Below, in pieces: positions 1 to 62,545 of a stretch of 64,000 nucleotides of DNA. The notes beneath the pieces are model-generated. The model searched no databases. It was given only the letters and a program-made list of their open reading frames with translations, and had not been told where the DNA came from. The stretch covers positions 7,688,001 to 7,752,000 of the forward strand of contig CDPCPM010000074.1 of the NCBI GenBank assembly GCA_976551045.1, read 5' to 3'. Every line of letters begins with the position of its first letter. The first letter of the stretch is position 1. The position numbers and the translations under genes were made by a program. The stretch comes from Glaucostegus cemiculus (taxonomy: Eukaryota).

Positions 1-1234
1 ATCTAATTGATCATCTATTGGATGTTAAGGTTCCAGTACAAGTACTAATAGATTGCCCAGAAAGCAAAAAAAAACACACTATGGGGGCAAACCCTACAAA
101 CTAGTCTGTTAAGTCTTCTTATATAGTTGTCCTGAAAGTCACTATTAAGCATTGTAGACATTAGAATGATAAAACCACATGCACTGTTAGTGCCAATCTT
201 ATTCATATTTATTTATTTATGATGTAATATTATTTATGATTTAATATTGTCAGAGATTTAAATGAAAGATAACAACACTTGGATGACTAAAACAGTATTG
301 AGCCTTTGTTTAAGTTGATTTTACTAATGGAAATTGAATGGAAACCCTAATTTTATAAGGCAAACAACTGGGGACAATGGGCATTGAAATGTGACAAATG
401 CAACACAGCTGAAAAAAGCCTTGAAAAACAGCATTGCCTTTTACACAACCCCAGCTTATCTACCAGGAAGGTTATTACAGGAAGCCTTTTTTGATTTCCA
501 GAAATGTTCCCAGAATTGATACTTTTTTTCAGTACTATATCGCTCTACATGTCCAATAGGCCAGTTCGAATTGATAGATCTAATGGGACGACTATATAAT
601 CTTACATAACACTGATAATATCACTGACGTATCTGTGTAATTTGTATCAGAAAAAGGACTGTAATCACTGAAGTCAGGCAAATAACTGAGGAATAAAACT
701 TGTTTTGTCCAATATTTGTATAATACAAAGACTCATTCTTTAACCAAATTACTGCAACATAGCCAATTGAGTTTAAAGTGCATCATGAATTTGACAAAAT
801 TGCACTTTGTACTTCCACACCACCATTCCCTAATTAACAGAGAGTCATTTAAAAATATAATCACGTCACAAAAAGGTTAAAACGCAACCCAACTACACTT
901 TTCTTGGACTTCGCTGCATAATTCCAACTGTTTTTGAAGCAAAAGTCTAATCATTACCAAACAAAGTGCACTTATTTACTGTTGCTAAATATTAATTAAA
1001 CTTGTGACAAAACAATACCTGTTCAGAGGGAGGATATCCTACTTTACTTGCACTCTGCGAAATGCTGGATTCCTTTTACTGCACTATCTGTGAGACTGAA
1101 ACAACTTATTCCATACGTTGCTGCTTTAAGGCTATGGAATTTGGAGTTCTGCATGTTCATAAGCCCAATACTTCTTTTGCATCCCTAAATTTTTCAGAAT
1201 CTGCATGTCAGATATAGCTTCTGCACATCAACAC

Positions 1235-11764: not shown

Positions 11765-12464
11765 GTTCTGGCTGAGGTAAACTGGGATGAAAAGTTGACA
11801 GGAAGAACTGTAGCAGAATAATGGCTGCCTGTAAGGAAGGTTCAAGTCCAGCGGAGGCACAGCTTATGAGAGCAAATGAAGAGCTAACAAATCCAGAGCT
11901 CCATGGATAATGTAAGAGATACAAAGGAAGCTAACGAAGGTCAAACAAAAAAGGCAGCTTATGACAACTGTGGAGTTGTTAAGTACCAGCAAGAACCAAG
12001 CTGATTACAGTGGAAGTGAAGACTGAAATAAGAGACTCAAAGGAAATGTATGAGAAACGATTAGCTGCCAACATAAATTGTAATAATAGGCACATAAATA
12101 TTTTTAAAAAGTACATGAAGAAGTGGGGCCTATTTAAGAACAAAAATAGGAACTTTCACATGGATACTGAGGCATTGTGTTAAGATACTGAATGAGTATT
12201 TTGCATCTACCTTCACTGGGAAGAGGGTGCTTTAAAACTAATAGTTTTAGTTTTAGTTGATAGTTGAGACATTAGACATGTTAAAAACTGATAATGTGAT
12301 AACACGGAATTTGGCTGAACTTAAAGTGGGTAAATCACTACAACCAGATGAGATGCATCCTTAGATTTTGAGCGAAGTATGGGAGGAAACCACAGAAGGT
12401 CAGTGCATCATTTTTCCATTCGCCTTGGAAATGGGGGTGGTGCCAGAGGACTGGACTATGGCTG

Positions 12465-12600
12465 AAAATCAAAATGTGCAGATGCTGGAAATCTGAAATA
12501 AAAATGGAAAATGCTGGAAACACTCAGCAGGTCAGGCCGCATCTGTGGAGAGAAGAACATGGTTAACATTTTAGGTTGAGGACCATTCATCAGGATTGGG
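12465..12600 (-). mobile_element. Short Penelope-pLTR-derived element with degenerate hammerhead core
   Basis: gcagatgctggaaatctgaaataaaa...ctcagcaggtcagg.gcatctgtggag; minus strand reads CTGATGA-atggtcctcaacct-AAAAtgtt. Confidence 0.7.
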
Positions 12601-12995
12601 TAAGACACCAGGAAACTGGAGAGAGGTTAATGTTTTATCCTTGGTCGCAAAATGGGAATGGGGGTAAAAACTATCAACTGTAAGTCAATCACTTTAACTT
12701 TAGTCATGGGAAAGCTTTTCAAACCATTGATCCAAGACAGGATTGTCATCTGGAAGAAAATGTGTTAGTTTAGGCAAAGCAGTATGGATTTATTAAGGAT
12801 AAATCATACTTGATAGAATATTTTGAAGAGGTGACAAATGGGGTTGAGGAGGGTAATGCACTTGATGCAGTATAGATGAACATCCAGATAGCTTTTTATA
12901 AAGTACCACAGAACAGCTTGTCAGCAAAGCACAAAAGGGACAATGTTGGCTAAGTAACAGGCAACAAAAGGTCATGGTTAACACTTGTTTTTTTG

Positions 12996-13136
12996 TTCTG
13001 ATGAAGGGTTTTTGACCTGGAACATTAGCTCTGTTTTTCTTCCCACAGATGCTGCCTGACCTCCTGAGTATTTCCTGCATTTTCTGTTCTTAATTCAGAT
13101 TTCCAGCATCTGCAGTTTTTGTATTTTTTTTATTTT
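12996..13136 (+). mobile_element. Short Penelope-pLTR-derived element (141 bp) with hammerhead-like core and 14-bp TSD
   Basis: CTGATGAagggtttttgacctGGAAcatt...cagatgctgcctgacctcctgag...ttccagcatctgcag; flanked by cacttgtttttttg at 12982-12995 and 13137-13150. Confidence 0.8.
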
Positions 13137-14173
13137 CACTTGTTTTTTTGGACTGAGGAAGGTGAATTGTGCTGTTCCCTGGGGATTTGTGTTAGTCTGT
13201 TGCTTTTTTTTCTATATTAAAGACCTAGACATGGGATTGAAAGTCATAATTTCTAAATTTGCAGATGACCACAATATTTTGTAGTATTCTGAACTGTGAG
13301 GTGGATAATGATAAATTGCAGCAGGATGTGACAAGCTGATAGAAATGAGCAGACACAGGGCAGATGAAGTTTACTGCACAAAAATACCAGCTGAAGCATT
13401 ATGGTAGGAAGAATGAGGAGGGGTAACATAGAGTGAAGGATACTGTTCTAAAAGGGGTGCAGGAGCAGAAAGACTTGGGGCTATAAGTCCAGAAGCTACT
13501 GAAAATGGCAGGACAGATTGAGAAAGTGATTAATAAGGCACACGCAATTCTGGGCTATAACAACAGAGGCAGAGTATAAAAGCAGAGAAGTCATGCTGGA
13601 AACACTGGTCTGACCTCAGCTGTGTTCAGTACTCATTGCCTCATTCATGATAGGAAGGATGTGGTGGACTGAAGATAGTCCAGAGGAGATTGATGAGAAT
13701 GGTTCCCAGGATGAGGGACTATGTTTATAAGGATAGATGGGAGAATCTGAGTCTGTTTGCTTTAGAGAAGAGGGCTGAGGGGACATCTGATAGAAATATG
13801 AAGGGTCTGGACAGAGAAGAGGCTGGACATGGGGAGGCTGTTTCCATTGGTGGATGTATTGTTGACTTGAGGTCACAGGTATAAAACAAAAGGGAACAGA
13901 ATTAATAGTAATGTGAGAAACAAACTTTCTTACACGTCATGTGGTTGGAATCTGGAATGCACACTTCCTGCAGATGTGGTGCAGGCAAATTCCACTGTGG
14001 CCTTCAAGAAGGAATTGGATAATTATATAGTGAGGGAAAATTTACAAGGCTACAGAGAAGGAGCCGGGAGGTGGAACTAGTGAGTTGCTCTGGGAGAGAC
14101 CCAACACAAACATGGCCTCAAAATGGTCTCCTTCTGGATGGTAATCATTCCATGACCTATGATTCTGTGATAT

Positions 14174-15870
14174 GAATGTGAAGGGTGGGTTGATACACTC
14201 CCTCTTGCTGGAGAGGGACATTGTCTGACATTTTTGTGGTGCAAATGTTACTTGACGTTTATCAGCCCATGTTTGAATGTTGCCTAGGTCTTGCTGCATG
14301 TGGCAATGGACTAAATCATTTATTGAGCAGTGTTGAATGGATCATCCACGAATATCCCACTTCTGACCTTATGATGAAAGGAAGGTCATTAATAATGTGG
14401 CTGAAGATGGTTCAGCATAGGACAGTGTCTTGATGGATTCGTGCAAAGATATCTTGGGAAAAGGATAGTTGACCTTCAGCCATGTTCTTTTGTGTAAAGA
14501 AAGTCACCAACCACTGGTATGTTGTCCTTTTGATGCCCATTGACTTCAATTTTCCCAGGGTGCTTTGACAGTCAAATGCTGTCATGATGTCAAGGACGGG
14601 CAGTCTCTCCAAACTCTGGAATTCGTATTTTCGGTCCATATTTAGACCATGGCTCTGAAGTCTGGAGCCAAATGGTTCCAGCAAAATTGAACTGGACATT
14701 GGTGAGTAGCTAAATGAGACAAGAGACTGCAAATGTTGAAATCTGGAGCAACAAACAAAAAACAAACTAACTGCTGGAACAACAAGAGACTGCAGATGCT
14801 GGAAACCAATTTCCTCTAGTGTTTTTATCAGTGAGTAGGTGAGTGCATGCTACTTGATAGCACTGTCAAATACAGCTTCTATCACTGATACCGTTTGAGA
14901 GCAGAATGGTTAAGTGATAATTAGACAAATTGGATTTGTCCTGCTCTTTGTGAACAGGACATGCCTGGGCAATTTTCCACATTGTTGGGAAGATATCAAT
15001 GTTGTAACTGTACTGGAACAGCTTGTCTAGAGGCACAGCTAGTTCTGGAGCACAGGTCTTCAGTATTTCAGCTGGCATTTTGCCTTGTCCCAAAGCCTTT
15101 GCTATATCTAGTGCTCTCAGCCATCTCTTGCTATCATGTTGAGTAAATCAAATTGGCTGGAGGTGGGCTTCTATGATGGTGGGGATCTCAGGAGGAAGCC
15201 AAGAAGGTTCGGCTATTTGGCACTTCTCTTCAACCTTCTCTTCAGCATTCACATGCTGGGCCCCATTATCATTGAGAATGAGGATGTTCATGAAATCTCC
15301 TCCTCCTGTAAGCTGTTAAATTGTCCACCACCATTCAAAGTGATAGGACAACAGAGTATTGATCAGATTTGTTGTGAGATCACTTAGCTCCATCTATTGC
15401 ACACTGTATGTGTTTTTTAGCATGTACATATAGTCTTGTGTTGCAGCATCAGCAGGCTGACATCTCATCATTTTCAGAAAGGGCTGTTGCTACTCCTAGC
15501 TTGTCCTTCCTATACTCTTTGGTCTCATTGATCTCTCTGGTTTGATATTAATGGCAGAGTGAGGGATATGCAGGAAAATAAGGTGAGAGTTAGTGTCGAT
15601 TTCCGCTACTGCTGACGGTCCGCAGAGCCTCGTGGATGCACAGTTTTGAACTGCCAGATCCGTTTTGAGTCTACTCCATTCCACAAGCCTGTGGTGCCAC
15701 ACAGAATGAGGGAGGGGGTCCTTGGTGTGACGACAGGACTTTGTCTTCACAAGGACTGTGCAGTGGTCACTTCTACCTGTGCTATCATGGGCAGATGCAA
15801 CTGCTGCACATAGATTGGCGAGGACAAGTCAAGTACCTTCATGTTGATGTTCTGACTACCTGCTGCACAA
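14174..15870 (-). mobile_element. CR1-group LINE 'X', 5' part (ORF2 remnant)
   Basis: Minus-strand ORFs: PAEILKTCAPELAVPLDKLFQYSYNIDIFPTMWKIAQACPVHKEQDKSNLSNY; QQDLGNIQTWADKRQVTFAPQKCQ; VWHHRLVEWSRLKTDLA. Confidence 0.85.
14715..14810 (-). mobile_element. Partial tandem Penelope-pLTR fragments inside LINE X
   Basis: acaagagactgcaaatgttgaaatctggagcaac followed by acaagagactgcagatgctggaa. Confidence 0.55.
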
Positions 15871-18849: not shown

Positions 18850-18935
18850 TAAAAACACACTGCTGTAGGAACTCCATGGGTCAAGCAGCATCTGTGGAGG
18901 GAAATGAACAGTCAATGTTTTGGATCAAGACCCTA
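18850..18935 (-). mobile_element. Truncated Penelope-pLTR-derived element
   Basis: tgctgtaggaactccatgggtcaagcagcatctgtggaggga...cagtcaatgttttggatcaagaccc. Confidence 0.6.
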
Positions 18936-19098
18936 CAATAAGTTTTAAAAGACATTTGAAAAAAGCCTATGGATAGGAAAGGATTTGGGGGATATGGGGC
19001 AAATGGGACAAGTTTAGGTGGGCACCTTGGTCAGCCTGGATGAGTTGGGCTGAGGGAACTGTTTACATGCTGTGTTATTCTAGGACTCCAAGATTCTA
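18936..19098 (+). mobile_element. CR1 3' UTR fragment
   Basis: ttttaaaagacatttg...ggatatgggg...ttgggctgagggaactgtttacatgctgtg...ctaggactccaagattctaag. Confidence 0.7.
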
Positions 19099-28179: not shown

Positions 28180-30320
28180 AATATTGTGTGTGGCAAGCAG
28201 ACTTATTCAGGGAGCTACAGGCCACTGAGCCTCACATCAGTGGTGGGAAAGTTATTGCAGGGGATACTGAGGGACAGGCTCTACCAGCATTTGGAAAGGC
28301 AAGGACTGATTAGGTATAGTCAGCAAGGCTTTATCCCTAGGAAATTGTCTCCCAATTTTCACTAAGTTTTTTTGAAGAGGTGACCAAGAGGATTGAGAGC
28401 AGGGTGGTAGACAGTGTCTACGTGGACTTTAACAAGGCCTTTGATGAGGTCTTGACTGGTAGGTTAGTGTGGAAGGTTGGGTCACATGCGATCAAGAGTG
28501 AGCTAACTGTTACGAAGTAGCTTGCTATAGGCAAATATCCCTTTAAGATGGGACATTGTGTGTGTGTGCAACATATTACGTCAACAGAAGATAAGACTAA
28601 CGTGATGAGGTCATTACAAGAAAGAAAAGAGAGGAGAGAGACAAACAGACAGAGAGAGAAGAAGGAGAGATGGCAGCCTGTTTTGTTTCTGTCGATGGAT
28701 GAAGGACAGTAACTGTGTTTGTCACTAAAATCCGTGGATGGATTTCTGGAGTAGTCCAGTGCAGTTCACCTTGTCGGTAACCTGTAGAAGGACACAGGTG
28801 TTTGCGTGGACAACCACATTTTGGATGCTCTTCAGAGTGGCAGATACTGTGGAACAAGGTGATGGAATTCACTTTGCTGCTAACCTGTAGAAGAACACAG
28901 GTATTTGCATGGACAGTCACGATCCAGGAGTTTTCAGGGTGAGAAAGTTAGCCCTGAAGTGTCGTCTGAGTTTCGAGTGGAACATTCGGATTTCATGATT
29001 CCTCTCTAATCTCTCTCTATATCTATGTTTTGTCTTCGGTGGACGGTGCTTGTGAAGAAGCCTTTATTCGTGTTTCATCTTACGGCTTATTGAACTGAAC
29101 TTTAAGAACTAATTCCTGGACTTTGAGTTTAGGAATTCGACACACACACACATGACAAGTAGTTTTTGGGGTTATAGTTTAAGATTCTAATATTTTGTTT
29201 TGTACTAATATACTAACTTTTTGTTCTTATTTTACATATTATCAGAAGTAGTTATTAATAAAGTAGTTTTAACACTGAAGTATGAATTGGTGTGATTCTT
29301 TTGTTGCTGGTTTCGTAACATAACTAATTGGAAACAAAATTGACTCAGTAGAAGAAGTCGGTGATAGTGGAGCATTGTTATTCAGATTGGAGGTCTGTGG
29401 CCAGTGGTGTGTCGCAGGGACTGGTGCTGTTGTTTGTCATCTATGTTAATGATTTGGATGATAATATTGTTAACGCAGTTAGTAAGCTTGCAGATGACAC
29501 CAAAATTGGTGTAGTAATGGACAGTGAAGTAGGTTATCTAAGATTACAATAGGGTCTGGATTGACAGGGGAAGTGGGCTAAGGAATGGTAGATGGTATTT
29601 AACTCTAAGTGTGAGGTGTTGGATTTTGGTCAGCTAAACCAGGGCAGGAATTGCACAGTAAATGGTAGGGCCCTGGAGACCTAGGGGTACAAGTACATAG
29701 TTCCCTGAAAGTGGAGACACAGGTAGATAGAGTGGTGAAGGAGCTTGTTGCACTTTCCTTCATCAGTTAGGGCATTGACTACAGAGCTGGGCCATCATAT
29801 TACAACTGTACAAGTACTTGATGAGACCACACTTGGAGTATTGTGTGCAGTTCTGGCCACGCAACTGTAGGAAGGATGTCATTAAGCTAGAAGGGATCCA
29901 GGAATAAAAATCATGAGGATGTTAGCAGAACTGTAGGGCTTGAATTATAAGGAGAAGCTGGATAGACTGGGACTTTTTTCCCTGGAGGGTAGGAGGTTGA
30001 GGGGTGAACCTTTGAGGCATATAAAGTCATGAGGGCTGTAGATAAGGTGGATGGTCAGTCTTTTTTCCCCAGGCTAGGGAGCCTAATAGTAGAAGGCATA
30101 CATTTCAGGTGAGAGGAGAAAGCTTTAAAAGGGACCTGAGGGGTAACTGTTTCATGCAGAGTGTGGTTGGTGTATTGGTTTATTGGAGGTATATGGAAGG
30201 AGCTGCTAGACCAAGCTATAGAAATGGATGCACAATGTTTAAATGACATTTGGACAGGTACATGGATAGATGGATGGACAAGTTGGGCTGAAGGGCCTGG
30301 TTCCATGCTATACAACTCTT
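28180..30320 (+). mobile_element. CR1 LINE (RT to 3' end, degenerate), interrupted by a solo LTR
   Basis: YRPLSLTSVVGKLL, SGVSQG, VSKLADDTKIG, EYCVQFW motifs; ends gggctgaagggcctggttccatgctatacaactct. Confidence 0.88.
28508..29320 (+). mobile_element. Solo LTR (Gypsy-like), 813 bp
   Basis: TGTTACGAA...TTCGTAACA inverted termini; 4-bp TSD taac (28504-28507, 29321-29324); AATAAA ~60 bp from the 3' end; second copy at 48039. Confidence 0.92.
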
Positions 30321-30344
30321 ATTTCAGAAGCCCTAGATCAGAAG

Positions 30345-30530
30345 ACCTCACATGAGAACAGAGATGGTGGAGACCAGAGAAACTGAGAAAAAGGATGGCC
30401 TCCTTGCAGGAGGTAGTATGAGAGGATGTGTAGTCAAGGTAGCTGCCGGAGTCAGTGGATTTATAGAAGATGTCAGTTGCAAGTCTCCATCCTGAGATGG
30501 AGACAGAGATCCAGGAAATGAAGAGAAATG
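30345..30530 (-). mobile_element. Penelope-like element RT/thumb fragment
   Basis: Translation ISVSISGWRLATDIFYKSTDSGSYLDYTSSHTTSCKEAILF matches the PLE motif TDIYYKPTDSHSYLDYTSSHP..CK. Confidence 0.85.
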
Positions 30531-31654
30531 TCCTGAATAGAACACTGGAAGCACTCACTTGGACTGATTTTTGTTCTCTCAACAGACTCATTTTCTCATC
30601 CTTAATTTATTTGACCAGTTAAATGGTGCAGTATTGCAATACTCTACAACCTATAGCTATACTGATGCACCTTTACAATCCAAACATTTATTACAAATGG
30701 CAGCAGTATGTTTTCACCTACCCCCAGGGGCCAAGACAAGAACAATTAAACTACAAGCAATCCTTTAATAAATAACTTGGGATCTATCATTTTAGTAATT
30801 AAAGGAATGGGTTGCTGAATTGAGAGGCCAGTGATGATATTCACTTCTTGGATAATACTTTATTTGCAGCTTTGGTGGTCTTTGCAGCAATTTCTTTCTT
30901 AGTAACACCCTTGCTCACTCTGCAACTCTGAAATACTAACAGACAATTGTAAGTGAATGGTCAATTTGGATTATAAAGAATATATTGTTCGTCAGGTGGG
31001 ATGCCAAGGGTCGACAAGCCTTGTGGATTTCCTGAATCATTATTGCCTTGGATGTTTGGAAAGAAACAATCAGAACGTTTTTCTGAATTAGTTCTGGTTT
31101 TGTTATCTTTTTACAACCCATCTACTGATCCTTTCCCATGCTTTCATTTACAAGGGGAATTTCTGTCAGAAAACACAGGAGTTTCCTGAAAATGGTAGGA
31201 TGGAATTGCTAATCCATTCTCCATCCACAGTGTGGACAGAAGCTCATCATCTGACTTGCCTGAGTTAAGCTTTCATGCTTGATCATTGACTGAGCTCTAC
31301 ATCATGTAGTGCATCATACCTATACTTAACCCTGTCTGCATACCAATTATAGTGCTCCTATAAATGGAATGCAGACTCTCTGGCTGGACGTATATAATGG
31401 TAGGTGAGTGTTGTGGCATGGATGATTTTGATCACCTATCACGAACACTCATGAGCTTTCCAGCAGTAATCAGGTGTCCTGACTAAACTTGTGTCTCTTC
31501 TCTGATTAGGCACCCTGAGGCCAAATACAGTATTTCTGCAAGGCAAATGCAAAGATCAACCAAATCAACACATAATAGGAATCAAACCTCGCAACTCCCT
31601 GGCCTGTGCAACACCTTGTGATGCAGTAAGCCTTTAGACTTAACTGTATAATAT

Positions 31655-42608: not shown

Positions 42609-45600
42609 ACATAGAACATTACAGCATAGTACAGGCCCTTTGGCTCACAATGTTGTGCTGACATTTTATCCTGCTCTAAGATCTATCTAACCCTTCCCCC
42701 TCACATAGCCCTTCATTTCTCTATCATTCACGTGCTTATCTATGAGTCTCTTAAATGCCCCTAATGTATCTGCCCTCACAACCTCTGCAGGCAGTGCATT
42801 CCACACACCACTGTATTTTTCAAAAACAAAATGATTGCCTCTGACATTCCTCCCCCCGCCCCCCAATACCTTCCTCCAATCACCTTAAAATGATGCCCCT
42901 TGTGTAGGCCATTTTCACCCTGGGAAAATGTCTCTGACTGTCCACTCGATCTATGCCTCTTATCATCTTGTACACCTCTATCAAGTCACCTCTCATCCTC
43001 CTTCTCTCCGAAGAGAAAAGCCCTAGCTCACTCAACCTGTCCTAATAAGACATGGTCTTCAATCCAGGCAGCATCCTGGTAAGTCTCCTCTGCACCCTCT
43101 CTAAAGCTTTCACATCCTTCCTATAATGAGGCAACCAGAACTAAACACAATACTCCAAGTGTGGTCTAACCAGAGCTGCAACATTACCTGGCAGCTCTCA
43201 ATACCCTGACCAACACACCATATGCTGCCTCAACAACCCTATCAACTTGCATGGCAATTTTAAACTATGGACTTGGACCCCAAGATCCCTCTGTTCCTCC
43301 ACACTGTTAAGAGTCCTGTCATTAACCTTGTATTCTGCCTTCATATTTGATCTTCCAAAGTGTATCACTTCGCACATTTCATGGTTGAACTCCATCTGCC
43401 ACCTCTCAGCCCAGCTCTGCATCCTATTAATGTCCTGTTGTAACCTACAACAACCTTCTACACCATCAACCTTCGTGTCATCTGCAAACTTACTAGATCA
43501 CAAGATAATGGAGCAGAAGCAGGCCAGTCGGCCTGTCGAGTCTGCTCCAAAGGGAAGGGAGGGTGGGGAAAAAGAGGATAACTAAAAAACCTATTCTAAG
43601 TCCAAATCCCCACCTTATCTCCATATCCCTTGATACCTTGACCAATTAGATATCTATTTCCTTCTTAAATATCCCCAATGATCTGGCTTCCACTGCTTTC
43701 TGTGGTAAGGAGTTCCACAGGTTCACCACCCTCTGGCTAAAGAAATTCCTCCTTATCTCTGTTGAACCTGCTTCCCCTGATTCTAAGGTTGTGCCCTCTA
43801 GTCCTGGACTCCCCACCAAGGGAAACAGCTTGACCACATTCACTTTGTCCATTCCTTTCAACATCGTGTACGTTTCTATTAGGTCCCCTCTCATTCTTCT
43901 GTACTCCAACGAGTACAGTCCAAGTGACGACAGTCGCTCATCATATGTAAGCTTTTTCATCCCAGGAATCATCCTAGTAAATCTCCTCTGAACCCTCTCC
44001 AACATCAGCACATCCTTCCTAAGGTATGGGGCCCAAAACTGCACACAGTACTCCAAGTGAGGCCTCACCAGTGCCCCGTATAGCCTCATCAACACTTCCT
44101 TGCTTTTATATACTATACCCCTTGAAATAAATGCCAACATAGCATTCGCTTTCCTTACCGCCGATCCAACCTGGCGGTTAACCTTTAGGTTATCCTGTAC
44201 AAGCACCCCTAAGTCCCTTTGTACTTCTGTGCTCCCAATTTTATCTCCTTCTAAATAATAGTCTGCCCATTTATTTCTACTTCCGAAGTGTACAACTGCA
44301 CATTTTTCCACGTTGAACCTCATCTGCCATTTCTTCGCCCATTCTCCTAGACTATCCAAGTCTCTCTGTAACTTTCCTGTCTCCTCACTACTCTCCACTC
44401 CCCCCCCCCCAATCTTAGTGTCATCCGCAAACTTGGCCACAAACCCATTAACTCCTTCGTCTAAATCATTAATATACAAGGTAAAAAGAAGGGGCCCCAA
44501 CACCGACCCCTGCGGAACACCACCAGTAACCGGCAGCCAACCAGAACAGGAACCTTTTATTCCCACCCTCTGTTTCCTGCCATCCAGCCAACGCTCCACC
44601 CATTCTGTTATCCTGCCTGTTATTCCGTGATCTCTCATCTTACTAATTAGTCTTTTGTGCGGCATCTTGTCGAATGCCTTCTGAAAGTCTAAATACACTA
44701 CATCTACGGCCTCTCCCTTGTCCACCCTGCCTGAGATTTCTTCAAAAAACTCCAATAAATTGGTCAGGCAGGATCTTCCCTTCACAAACCCATGTTGACT
44801 AGGACCTATCTTGCCTTGCACCTCCAAGTATCCCATCACCTCATCCTTGAGGATCGATTCTAGTATCTTCCCCACCACAGACGTAAGACTGATAGGTCTG
44901 TGATTTCCTTTATGCTGTCTCCCACCTTTCTTATACAATGGAAGTACATTCGCAACCCTCCAGTCCTCCGGAACCACTCCAGCATCTATCGATTCCTGAA
45001 AAATTATCACTAATGCCTCCACTATTTCTAAAGCTACTTCCTTCAGTACACGGGTATGTATCTCATCCGGTCCCGGAGACTTATCAGTCTTTAACCCATT
45101 TAGTTTCCCCAACACTTTCTCTCTAGTAATCTTAACTGTACTCAATTCTGTCCCTCGAGACCCTTGACTAACCGATATACTGTTAATATCTTCCACCGTG
45201 AAGACTGACGCAAAATACTGATTTAGCACCTCCACCATCTCTTTATCATCCATAATAGTCTCTCCCGCATCATTTTCTATCGGTCCTATATCAACCCGCG
45301 TCTCTCTTTTACTAGTGCATCCTTCCGCATCCTCCTCCAAGTCATTTATAAAAATTGCAAAGAGCAGGGGTCCCAGAACAGATCCCTGTGGGACACCCCT
45401 GGTCACCAATCTCCAGTCAGAATACGCTCCGTCTACCACCACCCTCTGTCTTCTATGAGCGAGCCAATTCTGAATCCACACAGCCAAGTTTCCCTGAATC
45501 CCATGCCTCCTGACTTTCTGAATGAGCCTTCCACGAGGAACCTTATCAAACACCTTACTAAAATCCATGTACACCACATCCACTGCTCTACCTTCATCAG

Positions 45601-53800: not shown

Positions 53801-54462
53801 TGCCTCATGGGTAGATAGGGTAGTTAAGAAAGCTTATGGGATGTTATCTTTCATAAATCGGGCGATCAAGTTTAAGAGCAGTGAAGTGATGATGCAACTT
53901 TACAAAACTCTAGTTACTCCACACTTGGAGTACTGTGTCTGGTTCTGGTCGCCCCATTATAGGAAGGATGTGGAGGCGTTGGAGAGGGTGCAGAGGAGAT
54001 TTACCAGGATGCTGCCTGGATTAGAGAGTATGCAATATGAGGAGAGACTAAAGGAGCTAGGGCCGTTCTCATTGGAGAGAAGGAGGATGAGGGGAGACAT
54101 GATAGGGGTATACAAGATATTCAGAGGAATAGATAGAGTGGACAGCCAGCGCCTCTTTCCCAGTGACCAATGCTCAAAACAAGAGGTCATGGCTTGAAGG
54201 TAATGGGTGGGAAGTTCAAGGGAGATGTCAGAGGGAGGTTTTTCACCCAGAGTGGTTGGTGCATGGAATGCGCTGCCTGGGGTGGTGGTGGAGGCTGATA
54301 CATTGGACAAGTTCAAGAGATTGTTAGATAAGCATATGGAGGAATTTAAGATAAAGGGATATGTGGGAGGAAGGGGTTAGATAGTCTTGCGTGTGGTTTG
54401 AAGGGCAGCACAGCACGGTGGGCCAAAGGGCCTGTATTGTGCTGTATTGTTCTATGGTTCTA
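50805..54462 (+). mobile_element. CR1 LINE with near-complete but frameshifted ORF2 (APE endonuclease + RT)
   Basis: LKCIYLNARSIRNKGDEL, VMGDFNF, VGEHLGDRDHCSMTF, NYRLASL.SVVGKLLE, SKFADDTKIG, HLEYCV.FWSPHYRKDV; tail gttctatggttcta; 5' boundary approximate. Confidence 0.93.
51947..52595. repeat. Purine-rich minisatellite, 29-bp unit (first two units 24 bp), 23 repeat cores
   Basis: ggaactttggaaaggag(a/g)aaggaaaggaa; cores at 51952, 51976, 52000, then every 29 bp to 52580. Confidence 0.98.
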
Positions 54463-54957
54463 GTTTAATGTTACAGTAAATTACTGCTTTGACATTCAAC
54501 AAGAACACTTGCCATCCTACTTACAGAGTCAACTAAAGTGTTAACAGTTTGATTCACTGCTCAACATGTGCAAGGGTCACAGAGAGCAAGTGGCTTGTTG
54601 AAATTGTGATGGACTCATCCATAATTGGCTGAACTGTCATTACAATTCAATGTGACATCATTGTCTGTAAATACTTGTATTGTGGGCAATGTCTTGGTTT
54701 GTGCTATTTGCAATAAAATGAAGGAAGAGTAAAATAAAAACAAGGGCAAACTATAAAGAATCTCTAAGGACATAAACCTGAAAAATATAGTAATAACAGC
54801 AAAAACACATTCATAAACAGCATAGCACTGTAGAAACATTGGGATTACCCAACTCACTGGGAATTCCAAAATTAGTGAAATTTGAAAACAAAATTGCTTT
54901 TTAGATGTATTTTCTGGTTAACATGATAGTTGCTGATGCAAATTGGAACAATGAAAA

Positions 54958-55483
54958 TGAAGTATTGTGTTCAGTTCTGGTCGTCTCACTATAGGAAACT
55001 TGTGGAAGCCATAGAAAGGGTATAGAGGAGACTTGCAAGGATATTGCCTGAAATGCGGAACATGCCTTATGAAAGCAGGTCAAGGGAACTCGGCCTTGTC
55101 TCCTTGGAGAGATGGAGGATGATGGGGGGACCTGACAGAGGTGTATAAGATGAGAGGTATTGATCGGGTAGATAATCAGAGGCTTTTCCCCAGGGCTGAA
55201 ATGGTAGCCACAAGAGGACGTAGGTTTAAGATGTTGGGGAGTAGATATAGAGGAGATGTCAGGGGAAAGTTTTTTAGTCAGAGTGGTGAGTGCGTGGAAT
55301 GGGCTGCTGGAAACGGTGGTGGAGGCAGACACAATAGTGTTTCAAGAGACTGTTAGATAGGTACATGGAGCTAAGTAAAATAGAGGGCTATGGGTAAGCC
55401 TAGTAACTTCTAGGGTAGGGACATGCTCGGCACAGCTTTGTAGGCCGAAGGGCCTGAATTGTGCTGTAGTGTTTCTGTTTCTA
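54958..55483 (+). mobile_element. CR1 LINE 3' fragment
   Basis: agtattgtgttcagttctgg...; YKMRGIDRVDNQRLFPRAEMVATRG; tail gggcctgaattgtgctgtagtgtttctgtttcta. Confidence 0.9.
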
Positions 55484-57620: not shown

Positions 57621-57709
57621 AAGTGGCAGTTAACATTACTACCATGTACTTGATGAATGATTTGTTATCCCAAATTGACCTCATCAGGTGGTCCACCATC
57701 ATTATGGAA

Positions 57710-58070
57710 TGAAAAACACAATGATGCTGGAGGAACTCAGCAGGTCAGGCAGCATCCTTGGAGAAAAGCAGATGGTCAACGTTTCCGGTCAGAACCTTTC
57801 TTCAAGACTGAAGATGGGAAAAGGGGAAGCCCAATACATAGGAGGGAAAAGCAGCGCAGTGATAGGTGGACCAAAGAGGGGAGTTGGAGTGGGCACAGGG
57901 AAGTGATGGGTAGATGCAGGTAAGAGATGGTGATAGGCTGGTGCGTGGGAGGGGAGAGCAGATCCACCAGGGGATGGATAAAAGTTAAGAAAAGGGGGAA
58001 GCAGAAGGGCTAGGAAAGAGAAGATGCATGTTGTGGGGGGGTGGGTGGTCTTGTGGAGATTACATAAAGT
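57710..58070 (-). mobile_element. Penelope-like element 3'/pLTR fragment with the best-preserved hammerhead-like motif
   Basis: atgctggaggaactcagcaggtcaggcagcatc; minus strand 57775-57808 reads gtc-TTGAAGA-aaggttctgaccg-GAAA-cg-TT-gac. Confidence 0.8.
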
Positions 58071-58073
58071 GGG

Positions 58074-58346
58074 AACCATAGAATACAGCACAATACAGGC
58101 CCTTCAGCCCACCATGTTGTGCTGTCCATCAAACCTCACACAATCTAACTCTTTCCTCTCACATATTCCTCAATCCCACATTTCTCCATATGCCTATCTA
58201 ACAATCTCTTGAACCTGTCCAACATATCAGCCTCCATCACCACCCCAGGCAGCGCATTCCATGCACCAACCACTCTCTGGGTGAAAAACCTCCCTTTGAC
58301 ATCTCCCCTGAACTTTCCACCCAATATCTTAAAGCCATGCCCTCTT
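58074..58346 (-). mobile_element. CR1 LINE 3' fragment
   Basis: aaccatagaatacagcacaatacaggcccttcagccc...caggcagcgcattccatgcaccaaccactctctgggtgaaaaacc, the reverse of 54200-54460. Confidence 0.9.
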
Positions 58347-59000: not shown

Positions 59001-59554
59001 AGTGAGTATACACTTGGGAAACTACATCATCTCTGGCTGAATTCGCTCCCTGACAAACTGGCTGACACCTCAAAGCCTCTGTAAAGATATCACACTCCTT
59101 TTTGTCATATTATGGATGCATCAGTGAACAATTCAACACCAGATAAGAATGACAATTGTGCATCATTATATGAAATAATTTGGTGAATGCAAATGCTCTG
59201 AAATGGCAAACCACTGCCCTTTGGGCATGGTCAGAAATACTTTCATAAGTAGAACCTTGACTTGCACTCCACCCTTTGGAAGACTGATCCACAACCTCCT
59301 TTTGGATACTTAGCCACACTTATCAAAAATAGATTATATTCCTATTTATGGAATAAGTTCAGTGCACAAGAAGAGCAACAGAGTTATGGTTATTTTTGAC
59401 ATCAGCTCCATGGTCATTTAGTATTAAGCAATGGCCATTTGGTGATTGCATTTGATAGCAATGTAATCTTCTAATGTCTATTCATATCCTCTTAAAACAA
59501 CAGTTCCTTGTAACCTATAATTCTGATTCTTAAAACACAAATGGTAGGACGCTT

Positions 59555-59710
59555 GAGCAAAAATAGAAAGTGCTTGAAATACAGAATCCGATCATCTGTA
59601 CCTCCAAGTGAATGAGACGTGGGCCTTTCTGTGAGAACTGGCTATCACAGCTGTTCCGATGAAGGTATCCACCCGAAACATGAAGCTGACTTTCAGATGC
59701 TGACTAGCTT
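59555..59710. mobile_element. Degenerate, apparently head-to-head pLTR-derived element with hammerhead-like core
   Basis: Left arm agaaagtgcttgaaatac...catctg; right arm cagctgtt-CCGATGA-aggtatccaccc-GAAA-ca-tg-aagctg...cagatgctgac. Confidence 0.55.
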
Positions 59711-62390: not shown

Positions 62391-62459
62391 ATCCTAGAAA
62401 AAAAATTCAACGACTCTTTCAACTTCCTTTATTTATTAGTGGAGGAGAGAATTACATTT

Positions 62460-62545
62460 TAAAGAAAACAGAAAATGCTGGAAATAATCAGCAAGTTAAG
62501 CAGGAAGTGAAACAGAGTTCAAGACCCTTGATCCGAGAATTGACT
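62460..62545 (-). mobile_element. Internally deleted Penelope-pLTR-derived element
   Basis: aaacagaaaatgctggaaataatcagcaagtt...gaaacagagttcaagaccctt. Confidence 0.55.

What the first reader, a model, noticed from the sequence alone, without database searches (positions are those of the whole stretch)
12465..13150. Mobile ~140-bp elements carrying a minimal hammerhead-ribozyme-like motif, one with a 14-bp TSD
Seen: 12996-13136 starts almost exactly at CTGATGA-agggtttttgacct-GGAA-catt and is flanked by a perfect 14-bp duplication (cacttgtttttttg). An inverted sister copy lies ~400 bp upstream, with relatives at 14715, 18850, 57710, 59555 and 62460. A Penelope RT fragment is at 30345. Known: Penelope-like element pLTRs encode minimal type I hammerheads (CUGANGA...GAAA...UH), and non-coding hammerhead retroelements (retrozymes) exist. 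Inference: a high-copy, non-autonomous, ribozyme-associated element with no Pol III head that inserts as a discrete unit. This may be an under-described retrozyme-like system in cartilaginous fish. These two copies have mutated cores and are probably inactive.
Basis: partly seen in the sequence, partly recalled or inferred. Interest (0 to 1): 0.7.

Follow-up and report, generated by a model that had tools for sequence, protein, structure and literature searches.

The report
Penelope retrotransposon end-stub with broken hammerhead
This 141-base insertion is real and is likely the cut-down tail end of a very abundant Penelope-type jumping gene, carrying a mutated copy of a small self-cutting RNA motif already known from such elements; the one unexplained detail is that copies stop at the motif's upstream edge several times more often than at neighbouring positions.

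Summary
12996-13136 is flanked by a true 14-bp target duplication inside a CR1-like LINE fragment and carries a minimal type I hammerhead with a broken core. The same sequence is the 3' end (pLTR plus ~35-bp tail) of RT/endonuclease-coding Penelope-like elements: it lies 0.9-1.5 kb downstream of 23 of 29 RT fragments. In a sister subfamily, TSD-flanked copies run from ~100 to ~640 bp, and 77 of 91 best-preserved copies extend past the ribozyme. About 0.6-0.8 million hits per genome; a third are head-to-head pairs, tandems are rare, and 5' ends are not enriched at the cut site, so it fails the retrozyme test. An independent short lineage is therefore not excluded, though short and long copies interleave on a low-power tree. 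This scan noted the same elements before, in this genome and others. Known kind; modest interest.

The parts
12982..12995 (+). Target-site duplication, left copy (14 bp); its last G may be shared with the element's 5' edge
   Evidence: single copy in register in CR1 paralogues
12996..13136 (+). Insertion: 3' end of a Penelope-like element (pLTR from the hammerhead's 5' edge through the tail), family B
   Evidence: 84% to the end of ORF-bearing L003
12995..13029 (+). Minimal type I hammerhead motif: stem I cut to ~3 bp, CUGAUGA intact, stem II intact, GAAA changed to GGAA, helix-III palindrome lost; predicted inactive
13095..13136 (+). Approximate optional ~35-40-bp tail
   Evidence: bimodal 3' ends in family A at +86..105 and +125..137; position here inferred by homology
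13137..13150 (+). Target-site duplication, right copy
12465..12608 (-). Second, independent PLE-end insertion with tail; core G12 changed to A; no clear TSD
12170..13900 (+). Decayed CR1-like LINE RT fragment hosting both insertions (limits approximate; the CR1 label is recalled from its motifs)
14716..14807 (-). Tail-only fragments of the same element family, no hammerhead
18852..18937 (-). Family A end, 5' part of the core lost, no tail
30341..30532 (-). Isolated fragment of the PLE reverse transcriptase (thumb region), no adjacent pLTR
57709..58024 (-). ~316-bp PLE 3' end extending ~215 bp upstream of the hammerhead, no tail
   Evidence: 82% to L057 over 321 bp
59552..59700 (.). Distant, degraded head-to-head-like pair with a hammerhead-like core at ~59656 (+); weak
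   Evidence: read by eye; not hit by the profiles
62458..62536 (-). Degraded family B end

Best explanation
The 141-bp insertion matches the 3' end of an endonuclease-bearing Penelope-like element, and it was likely made by that element's own RT/GIY-YIG protein, which would nick the target, start copying at the tail site and stop early at the 5' edge of the hammerhead. Shown: identity with the 3' ends of ORF-bearing copies, TSDs, two 3' end classes ~35 bp apart, a continuum of 5' ends with a peak at about -10..+10 around CUGAUGA, and frequent head-to-head pairs inserted as one unit. Inferred: target-primed reverse transcription with internal initiation, by analogy with the Anolis element. Also inferred, and the weakest step: once the cDNA has copied the 5' strand of stem I, its 3' end is self-complementary (stems I and II, the palindrome), so it folds back or pairs with a second cDNA primed on the other strand. 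That would end synthesis there and give either a stub or an inverted pair. The ribozyme is a passenger in these stubs and in these two copies is predicted dead.
For: A same-strand copy lies 0.9-1.5 kb downstream of 23 of 29 RT fragments; about 2 would be expected from the background density (my arithmetic). Family B: 12 of 29 closest relatives continue upstream into shared sequence, from ~50 bp to over 500 bp, and L003, L023 and L010 reach RT/endonuclease remains. The ORF resembles RT clusters at 0.95 in the Atlas and has a GIY-YIG-like end and a Cys linker. Best-preserved family A copies: 77 of 91 extend more than 10 bp upstream of the core. TSDs in 12 of 67 against 1 of 392 shuffled pairs; the 9 that abut both ends give 5' ends at -508, -408, -389, -163, -48, -23, -7, -4 and 0. 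3' ends: 29 at +86..105, 48 at +125..137, 2 between, of 90. 37 head-to-head pairs and 0 tail-to-tail among 228 hits; TSDs around whole pairs in 9 of 49 against 6 of 483; 30 of 34 uncut pairs have exactly one tailed arm and none has two. Long copies carry inverted short arms at their truncated 5' ends (L180, L182, L183, L186). Short and long family B copies interleave: 11 changes against ~12 shuffled. All these layouts are described for PLEs (PMC8557442, PMC3846280, PMC11167929, PMC4209133).
Against: 5' ends are not random: 22 of 75 non-inverted family A copies end at -10..+10 against 5.4 expected, and 14 of 91 best-preserved copies against 1.8. In family B only 3 of 27 sampled non-inverted copies scored as extended (about 7 by eye), so short copies dominate the window copy's own family; the reference set for B was small. 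The tree has 128 columns and 1 supported branch of 34, so it has little power. Pfam and PDB gave no family for the ORF pieces, and I built no RT tree. No intact full-length element was found. Which arm of a pair carries the tail does not follow which arm is longer at the 5' end, which argues against simple one-way fold-back.
Confidence: 0.78

Rival explanations
1. Many short copies, above all in family B, come from a short non-autonomous template (a stub or fold-back copy, or an RNA whose 5' end lies at the hammerhead edge through a start site or splice acceptor) that the PLE protein mobilised in trans: a PLE-dependent SINE-like element.
For: 5' end peak. Family B is mostly short. A pyrimidine tract and CAG precede the core (CAGTC in 62 of 91 copies), and in Drosophila Penelope an intron ends at helix I (PMC4209133). 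pLTRs can act in trans (PMC3846280), and non-autonomous PLE derivatives exist (PMC8557442; bioRxiv 2026.07.22.740005).
Against: No separate clade. Ends scatter over about -10..+10 rather than one base. 5' flanks of edge copies share no exon-like sequence and, apart from one local duplication (L287), do not match the element's upstream region. Same-subfamily copies have ORF remains.
Confidence: 0.14
2. A non-LTR retrozyme: tandem units self-cleave to monomers and circles, which are reverse-transcribed and inserted.
For: An intact core exists in the family: 543 exact matches to one 25-nt intact variant, 0 for the reversed control. Retrozymes were reported in the one chondrichthyan genome that the preprint sampled (bioRxiv 2026.07.22.740005).
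Against: 3 direct neighbours among 228 hits. Units begin ~30 nt upstream of the cut site, and 5' ends at the cut site are 6 of 110 against 6.5 expected. The motif is the minimal PLE type, not the canonical retrozyme type (PMC7229834). Only 7 of 64 and 3 of 33 sampled cores are intact.
Confidence: 0.03
3. Solo pLTRs left by later recombination or deletion of longer elements.
For: Proposed for TSD-less solo pLTRs in Adineta (PMC3846280); most sampled copies show no detectable TSD (15 of 179 rows, two of them duplicates of the window copies).
Against: The window copy has a perfect TSD against both ends, and recombination would not give a continuum of TSD-flanked lengths or one-tailed inverted pairs.
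Confidence: 0.05

Closest known systems
Minimal type I hammerheads in pLTRs of metazoan PLEs (Cervera and De la Pena 2014, PMC4209133)
   Same: CUGANGA, extra base before stem II, GAAA, palindromic stub in place of helix III, UH, short stem I; mostly single dispersed motifs read there as truncated PLEs; reported for fish Xena, Poseidon and Neptune elements.
   Different: In the parts I read no shark or ray is named, and the counts (4,000 in coelacanth, 9,000 in Xenopus) are of intact motifs; here ~0.6-0.8 million mostly decayed hits. No 5'-end peak is described there.
Insertion structure of EN+ PLEs (Craig 2021 PMC8557442; Arkhipova 2013 PMC3846280)
   Same: 5' truncation, adjacent inverted pLTR, 30-40-bp tail on one side only, 8-10-bp TSDs, microhomology and palindromes at the junction.
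   Different: Here very many insertions consist of little or nothing but the terminal 100-140 bp, TSDs are 9-17 bp, and 5' ends peak at stem I.
Poseidon of Anolis (PAc), internal RT initiation (Frangieh 2024, PMC11167929)
   Same: Two 3' end classes ~100-140 nt downstream of the hammerhead; no sign that cleaved RNA is the template.
   Different: This family looks Neptune-like from its Cys linker (not placed on a tree); nothing was tested biochemically here.
Non-LTR retrozymes (Cervera and De la Pena 2020 PMC7229834; Li et al. bioRxiv 2026.07.22.740005)
   Same: Non-coding, type I hammerhead, related to PLE pLTRs, long TSDs; dispersed monomers are described.
   Different: Defined by tandem units with active ribozymes and circular RNAs; here tandems are rare, neighbours are head-to-head, and unit ends do not match the cut site.

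Membership tests
EN+ Penelope-like element (3' end) | Terminal repeat lies downstream of an RT + C-terminal GIY-YIG ORF | tested here: met
   Atlas RT 0.95, GIY-YIG 0.88 as a lead only; Pfam blank
EN+ Penelope-like element (3' end) | Optional 30-40-bp tail | tested here: met
   3' ends 29 at +86..105, 48 at +125..137, 2 between, of 90
EN+ Penelope-like element (3' end) | 5' truncation and an inverted 5'-truncated copy at the 5' end | tested here: met
EN+ Penelope-like element (3' end) | pLTR also present before the ORF (partial tandem) | tested here: met
   same-strand pLTR upstream of the ORF start in L181 and L176, 2 of 30 loci; family A only
Neptune clade | Zn-finger-like linker between RT and EN; RT phylogeny | tested here: inconclusive
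   Cys motif seen in L055 and L040; no tree, and Nematis shares the motif (PMC8557442)
Minimal type I hammerhead | CUGANGA / GAAA / UH core with stems I and II in the family | tested here: met
   88% of cells paired against 13-46% when slid; C-G/U-A swap at the stem I closing pair, one family-level change in 20 sequences that I chose; 543 exact intact 25-mers
Minimal type I hammerhead | Intact core in the two window copies | tested here: not met
   A13 to G at 13020; G12 to A in the second copy
Minimal type I hammerhead | Self-cleavage as dimer or with protein | not testable with these tools
   weak or protein-assisted in the literature (PMC4209133, PMC11167929)
Non-LTR retrozyme | Tandem units each with a ribozyme | tested here: not met
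   3 direct neighbours among 228 hits in 980 kb; rare arrays elsewhere in the genome are not excluded
Non-LTR retrozyme | Monomer ends set by the cleavage site | tested here: not met
   6 of 110 against 6.5 expected, family A
Non-LTR retrozyme | Monomeric linear and circular RNA | not testable with these tools
   only contigs of coded runs were offered
Non-autonomous PLE derivative (SINE-like) | Own lineage with a fixed 5' end | tested here: inconclusive
   no clade (low power); ends scatter over ~20 bp; family B mostly short

The most novel reading that the evidence does not exclude
The hammerhead's stem I acts at the DNA-synthesis step as a preferred stop and fold-back point, or marks the 5' end of a short template. 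A cartilaginous-fish PLE would then make hundreds of thousands of near-unit-length 100-140-bp stubs and hairpins, some of which propagate as a PLE-dependent SINE-like family. The PLE hammerhead's structure would shape insertions without cleaving.
Probability: 0.2. Interest if true: 0.55.

Novelty: new member of a known kind. Interest (0 to 1): 0.27.

Why it matters
As annotation: about 2.3% of the sampled DNA is this short terminus, easily mis-called as a SINE or retrozyme. As mechanism: how PLEs build inverted repeats and what their weak hammerhead does are open questions. The end statistics (5' peak at stem I, none at the cut site, exactly one tail per inverted pair) give predictions that the published in vitro PLE system can test.

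Tried and rejected
Rfam scan of the window: no hammerhead match. Pfam and PDB sequence search on ORF pieces: no useful family. Single-strand folding: z-scores -1.2 to +0.3, uninformative for a motif without helix III. Nucleotide search for an empty CR1 site in fetched loci: no close paralogue; the protein-level test worked. Sequencing runs: no RNA holder listed. The first lay of contigs covered the ORF interior, not the ribozyme. The second showed no GT..AG joint ending at the CAG among the 15 of 381 joints listed, and contigs cannot show RNA ends; no conclusion drawn. Spliced-template idea: no shared exon-like 5' flank, so unsupported, not excluded. One-way snap-back as the only source of inverted pairs: tail side does not follow arm length. 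Subfamily artefact for the family A peak: rejected, since flanks of edge copies are 0.24-0.68 pyrimidine against 0.70-0.89 in extended copies; not excluded for family B. L057 and L037 looked like full-length tandems but their upstream copies are separate insertions. The 12465 copy as an inverted arm of 12996: rejected (about 400 bp of CR1 between, own TSD on the first). Literature searches returned no paper on shark or ray PLE ends or on a 5'-end peak; the library lacks most subscription journals and Repbase/Dfam. The preprint's supplements, which list its chondrichthyan retrozyme families, were not seen and may bear on novelty.

Full report
Observation. The stretch 12996-13136 is flanked by a 14-bp direct repeat that occurs nowhere else in the window. 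It interrupts a CR1-like reverse-transcriptase fragment (label recalled from its motifs). The two flanks both translate TCFF, and most of the 18 paralogous hits in fetched loci have that position once and in register, so the repeat is a true target-site duplication. The element starts two bases before CTGATGA (12998), has a five-pair stem II, then GGAA in place of GAAA, and UU followed by the 3' strand of stem I. The copy at 12465-12608 (-) is 80% identical, reads AAAA in place of GAAA, and is a separate insertion. Of the named relatives, three are confirmed by profile, one is tail only and one is a weak distant copy.

What it is part of. The window is a piece of a 2.85-Gb genome. I searched the genome with the RT fragment at 30340-30519 and examined the 29 best loci other than the window. 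23 have the same short sequence on the same strand 0.9-1.5 kb downstream, two more at 894 and 76 bp, and four have none; in one of the 23 (L054) the link is not contiguous. About 2 would be expected by chance (my arithmetic). These ends belong to a sister family (A, stem I CAGUC/GACUG). For the window copy's family (B, AGUU/AACU), 12 of the 29 closest relatives continue upstream into shared sequence, and L003, L023 and L010 reach RT or endonuclease remains; the window copy is 84% identical to the end of L003. The ORF resembles RT clusters at 0.95 in the Atlas, with GIY-YIG only as a 0.88 lead, and shows a Cys linker and a GIY-YIG-like end. Pfam and PDB gave nothing. Two of 30 loci found with an N-terminal peptide have a same-strand pLTR before the ORF, and several have an inverted short arm at the truncated 5' end.

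Abundance and layout. In 98 stretches of 10 kb, which I chose at round positions on larger contigs (not strictly random), profiles found 228 hits and none in reversed DNA. That extrapolates to 0.56-0.78 million per genome, arms counted singly, and 2.3% of bases. 37 head-to-head pairs hold 74 of the hits; tail-to-tail pairs number 0 and direct neighbours 3. Beyond 60 bp of gap there is no clear excess. Whole pairs carry TSDs in 9 of 49 cases against 6 of 483 shuffled. Of 34 pairs not cut by a locus edge, 30 have exactly one tailed arm and none has two, while 79 of 152 non-inverted copies are tailed.

Ends. I took the 543 exact matches to one intact 25-nt core and examined 91 matches in 90 loci among the first listed. 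77 extend more than 10 bp upstream, spread out to beyond 900 bp, and 14 end at -10..0 against 1.8 expected from the next 100 bp (p about 5e-8 after dropping one local duplication). TSDs were found in 12 of 67 non-inverted copies against 1 of 392 controls; nine abut both ends, at -508, -408, -389, -163, -48, -23, -7, -4 and 0. 3' ends are bimodal, ~35 bp apart (one copy could not be aligned). In the 980-kb sample, 22 of 75 non-inverted family A copies end at -10..+10 against 5.4 expected, their flanks are not element-like, and 25 of 75 extend over 50 bp. At the predicted cut site (+28) there is no excess: 6 of 110 against 6.5. Against my reading, family B is much shorter: 3 of 27 sampled non-inverted copies scored as extended, about 7 by eye, with a small reference set. 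A tree of 37 B copies mixes short and long ones (11 changes, shuffled mean ~12, 153 of 500 as low) but has almost no supported branches.

Ribozyme. The family has an intact minimal core; stems pair in 88% of cells against 13-46% when slid, with a C-G/U-A swap between families, which is one event (20 sequences chosen by me). Only 7 of 64 A and 3 of 33 B sampled copies keep the core. Both window copies have a changed catalytic base and are predicted inactive. No activity was tested.

Mechanism. Shown: the unit is a PLE 3' end with TSD, tail, variable 5' truncation and a peak at the hammerhead's 5' edge. Inferred from PMC11167929: nicking of both strands and internal initiation at two sites give the tailed and untailed ends, with uncleaved RNA as template. 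Inferred and untested: self-complementarity of the cDNA after stem I is copied favours termination, fold-back or pairing with a second cDNA. A start site or splice acceptor at the CAG is the alternative; I found no spliced form.

Known and new. Minimal hammerheads on dispersed truncated PLEs (PMC4209133, parts 1-2 of 4 read), inverted arms, tails, TSDs and solo pLTRs (PMC8557442 and PMC3846280, passages), internal initiation (PMC11167929, parts 1-2 of 4), the intron in the Penelope pLTR (PMC2377424, passages) and tandem retrozymes (PMC7229834, passages; bioRxiv 2026.07.22.740005, parts 1-3 of 5, supplements not seen; PMC6155905, passages) are all in print. Seven searches returned nothing on a 5'-end peak at stem I. 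Earlier notes of this scan report the same stubs and hairpins in this and other genomes; they are leads, not support.

Verdict. Real, a new member of a known kind, not a retrozyme by the tests run. Interest 0.27, for the end statistics.

Noticed in passing
random sample L061-L158, family A copies: Subfamily-wide core variants are as common as the canonical heptamer: CTGATGC 13, CAGATGA 12, CTGATGA 10 of 65. Whole subfamilies seem to have spread with a non-canonical core, which suggests cleavage was not needed or the core is read differently.
   Followed up: partly
L007, L012, L023, L029 upstream of the main hit: Several family B copies stop sharing sequence about 80-95 bp upstream of the core; possibly a second preferred stop, or chance.
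   Followed up: no
all subfamilies, 5 bases before CTGATGA: A pyrimidine tract ending in (C)AG precedes the core and looks like a splice acceptor, also in subfamilies where stem I would not need the A.
   Followed up: partly
L063, L068, L075, L124, L129 inverted pairs: Junctions often overlap by 3-5 bases where the bases just before the core can pair with the start of stem II.
   Followed up: no
G000 C32, C361, C528, C574, C1, C144, C454 hits: Seven hits share the same 212-aa open frame and near-identical scores; possibly a younger PLE subfamily or duplicated segments. Not fetched.
   Followed up: no
window 42609-42924, 54196-54472, 55244-55473, 58084-58288: Matches to the far 5' part of L003's locus; probably another common repeat rather than PLE.
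   Followed up: no
window 29400-30320: A second CR1-like LINE 3' fragment abuts the PLE RT fragment (label recalled).
   Followed up: no
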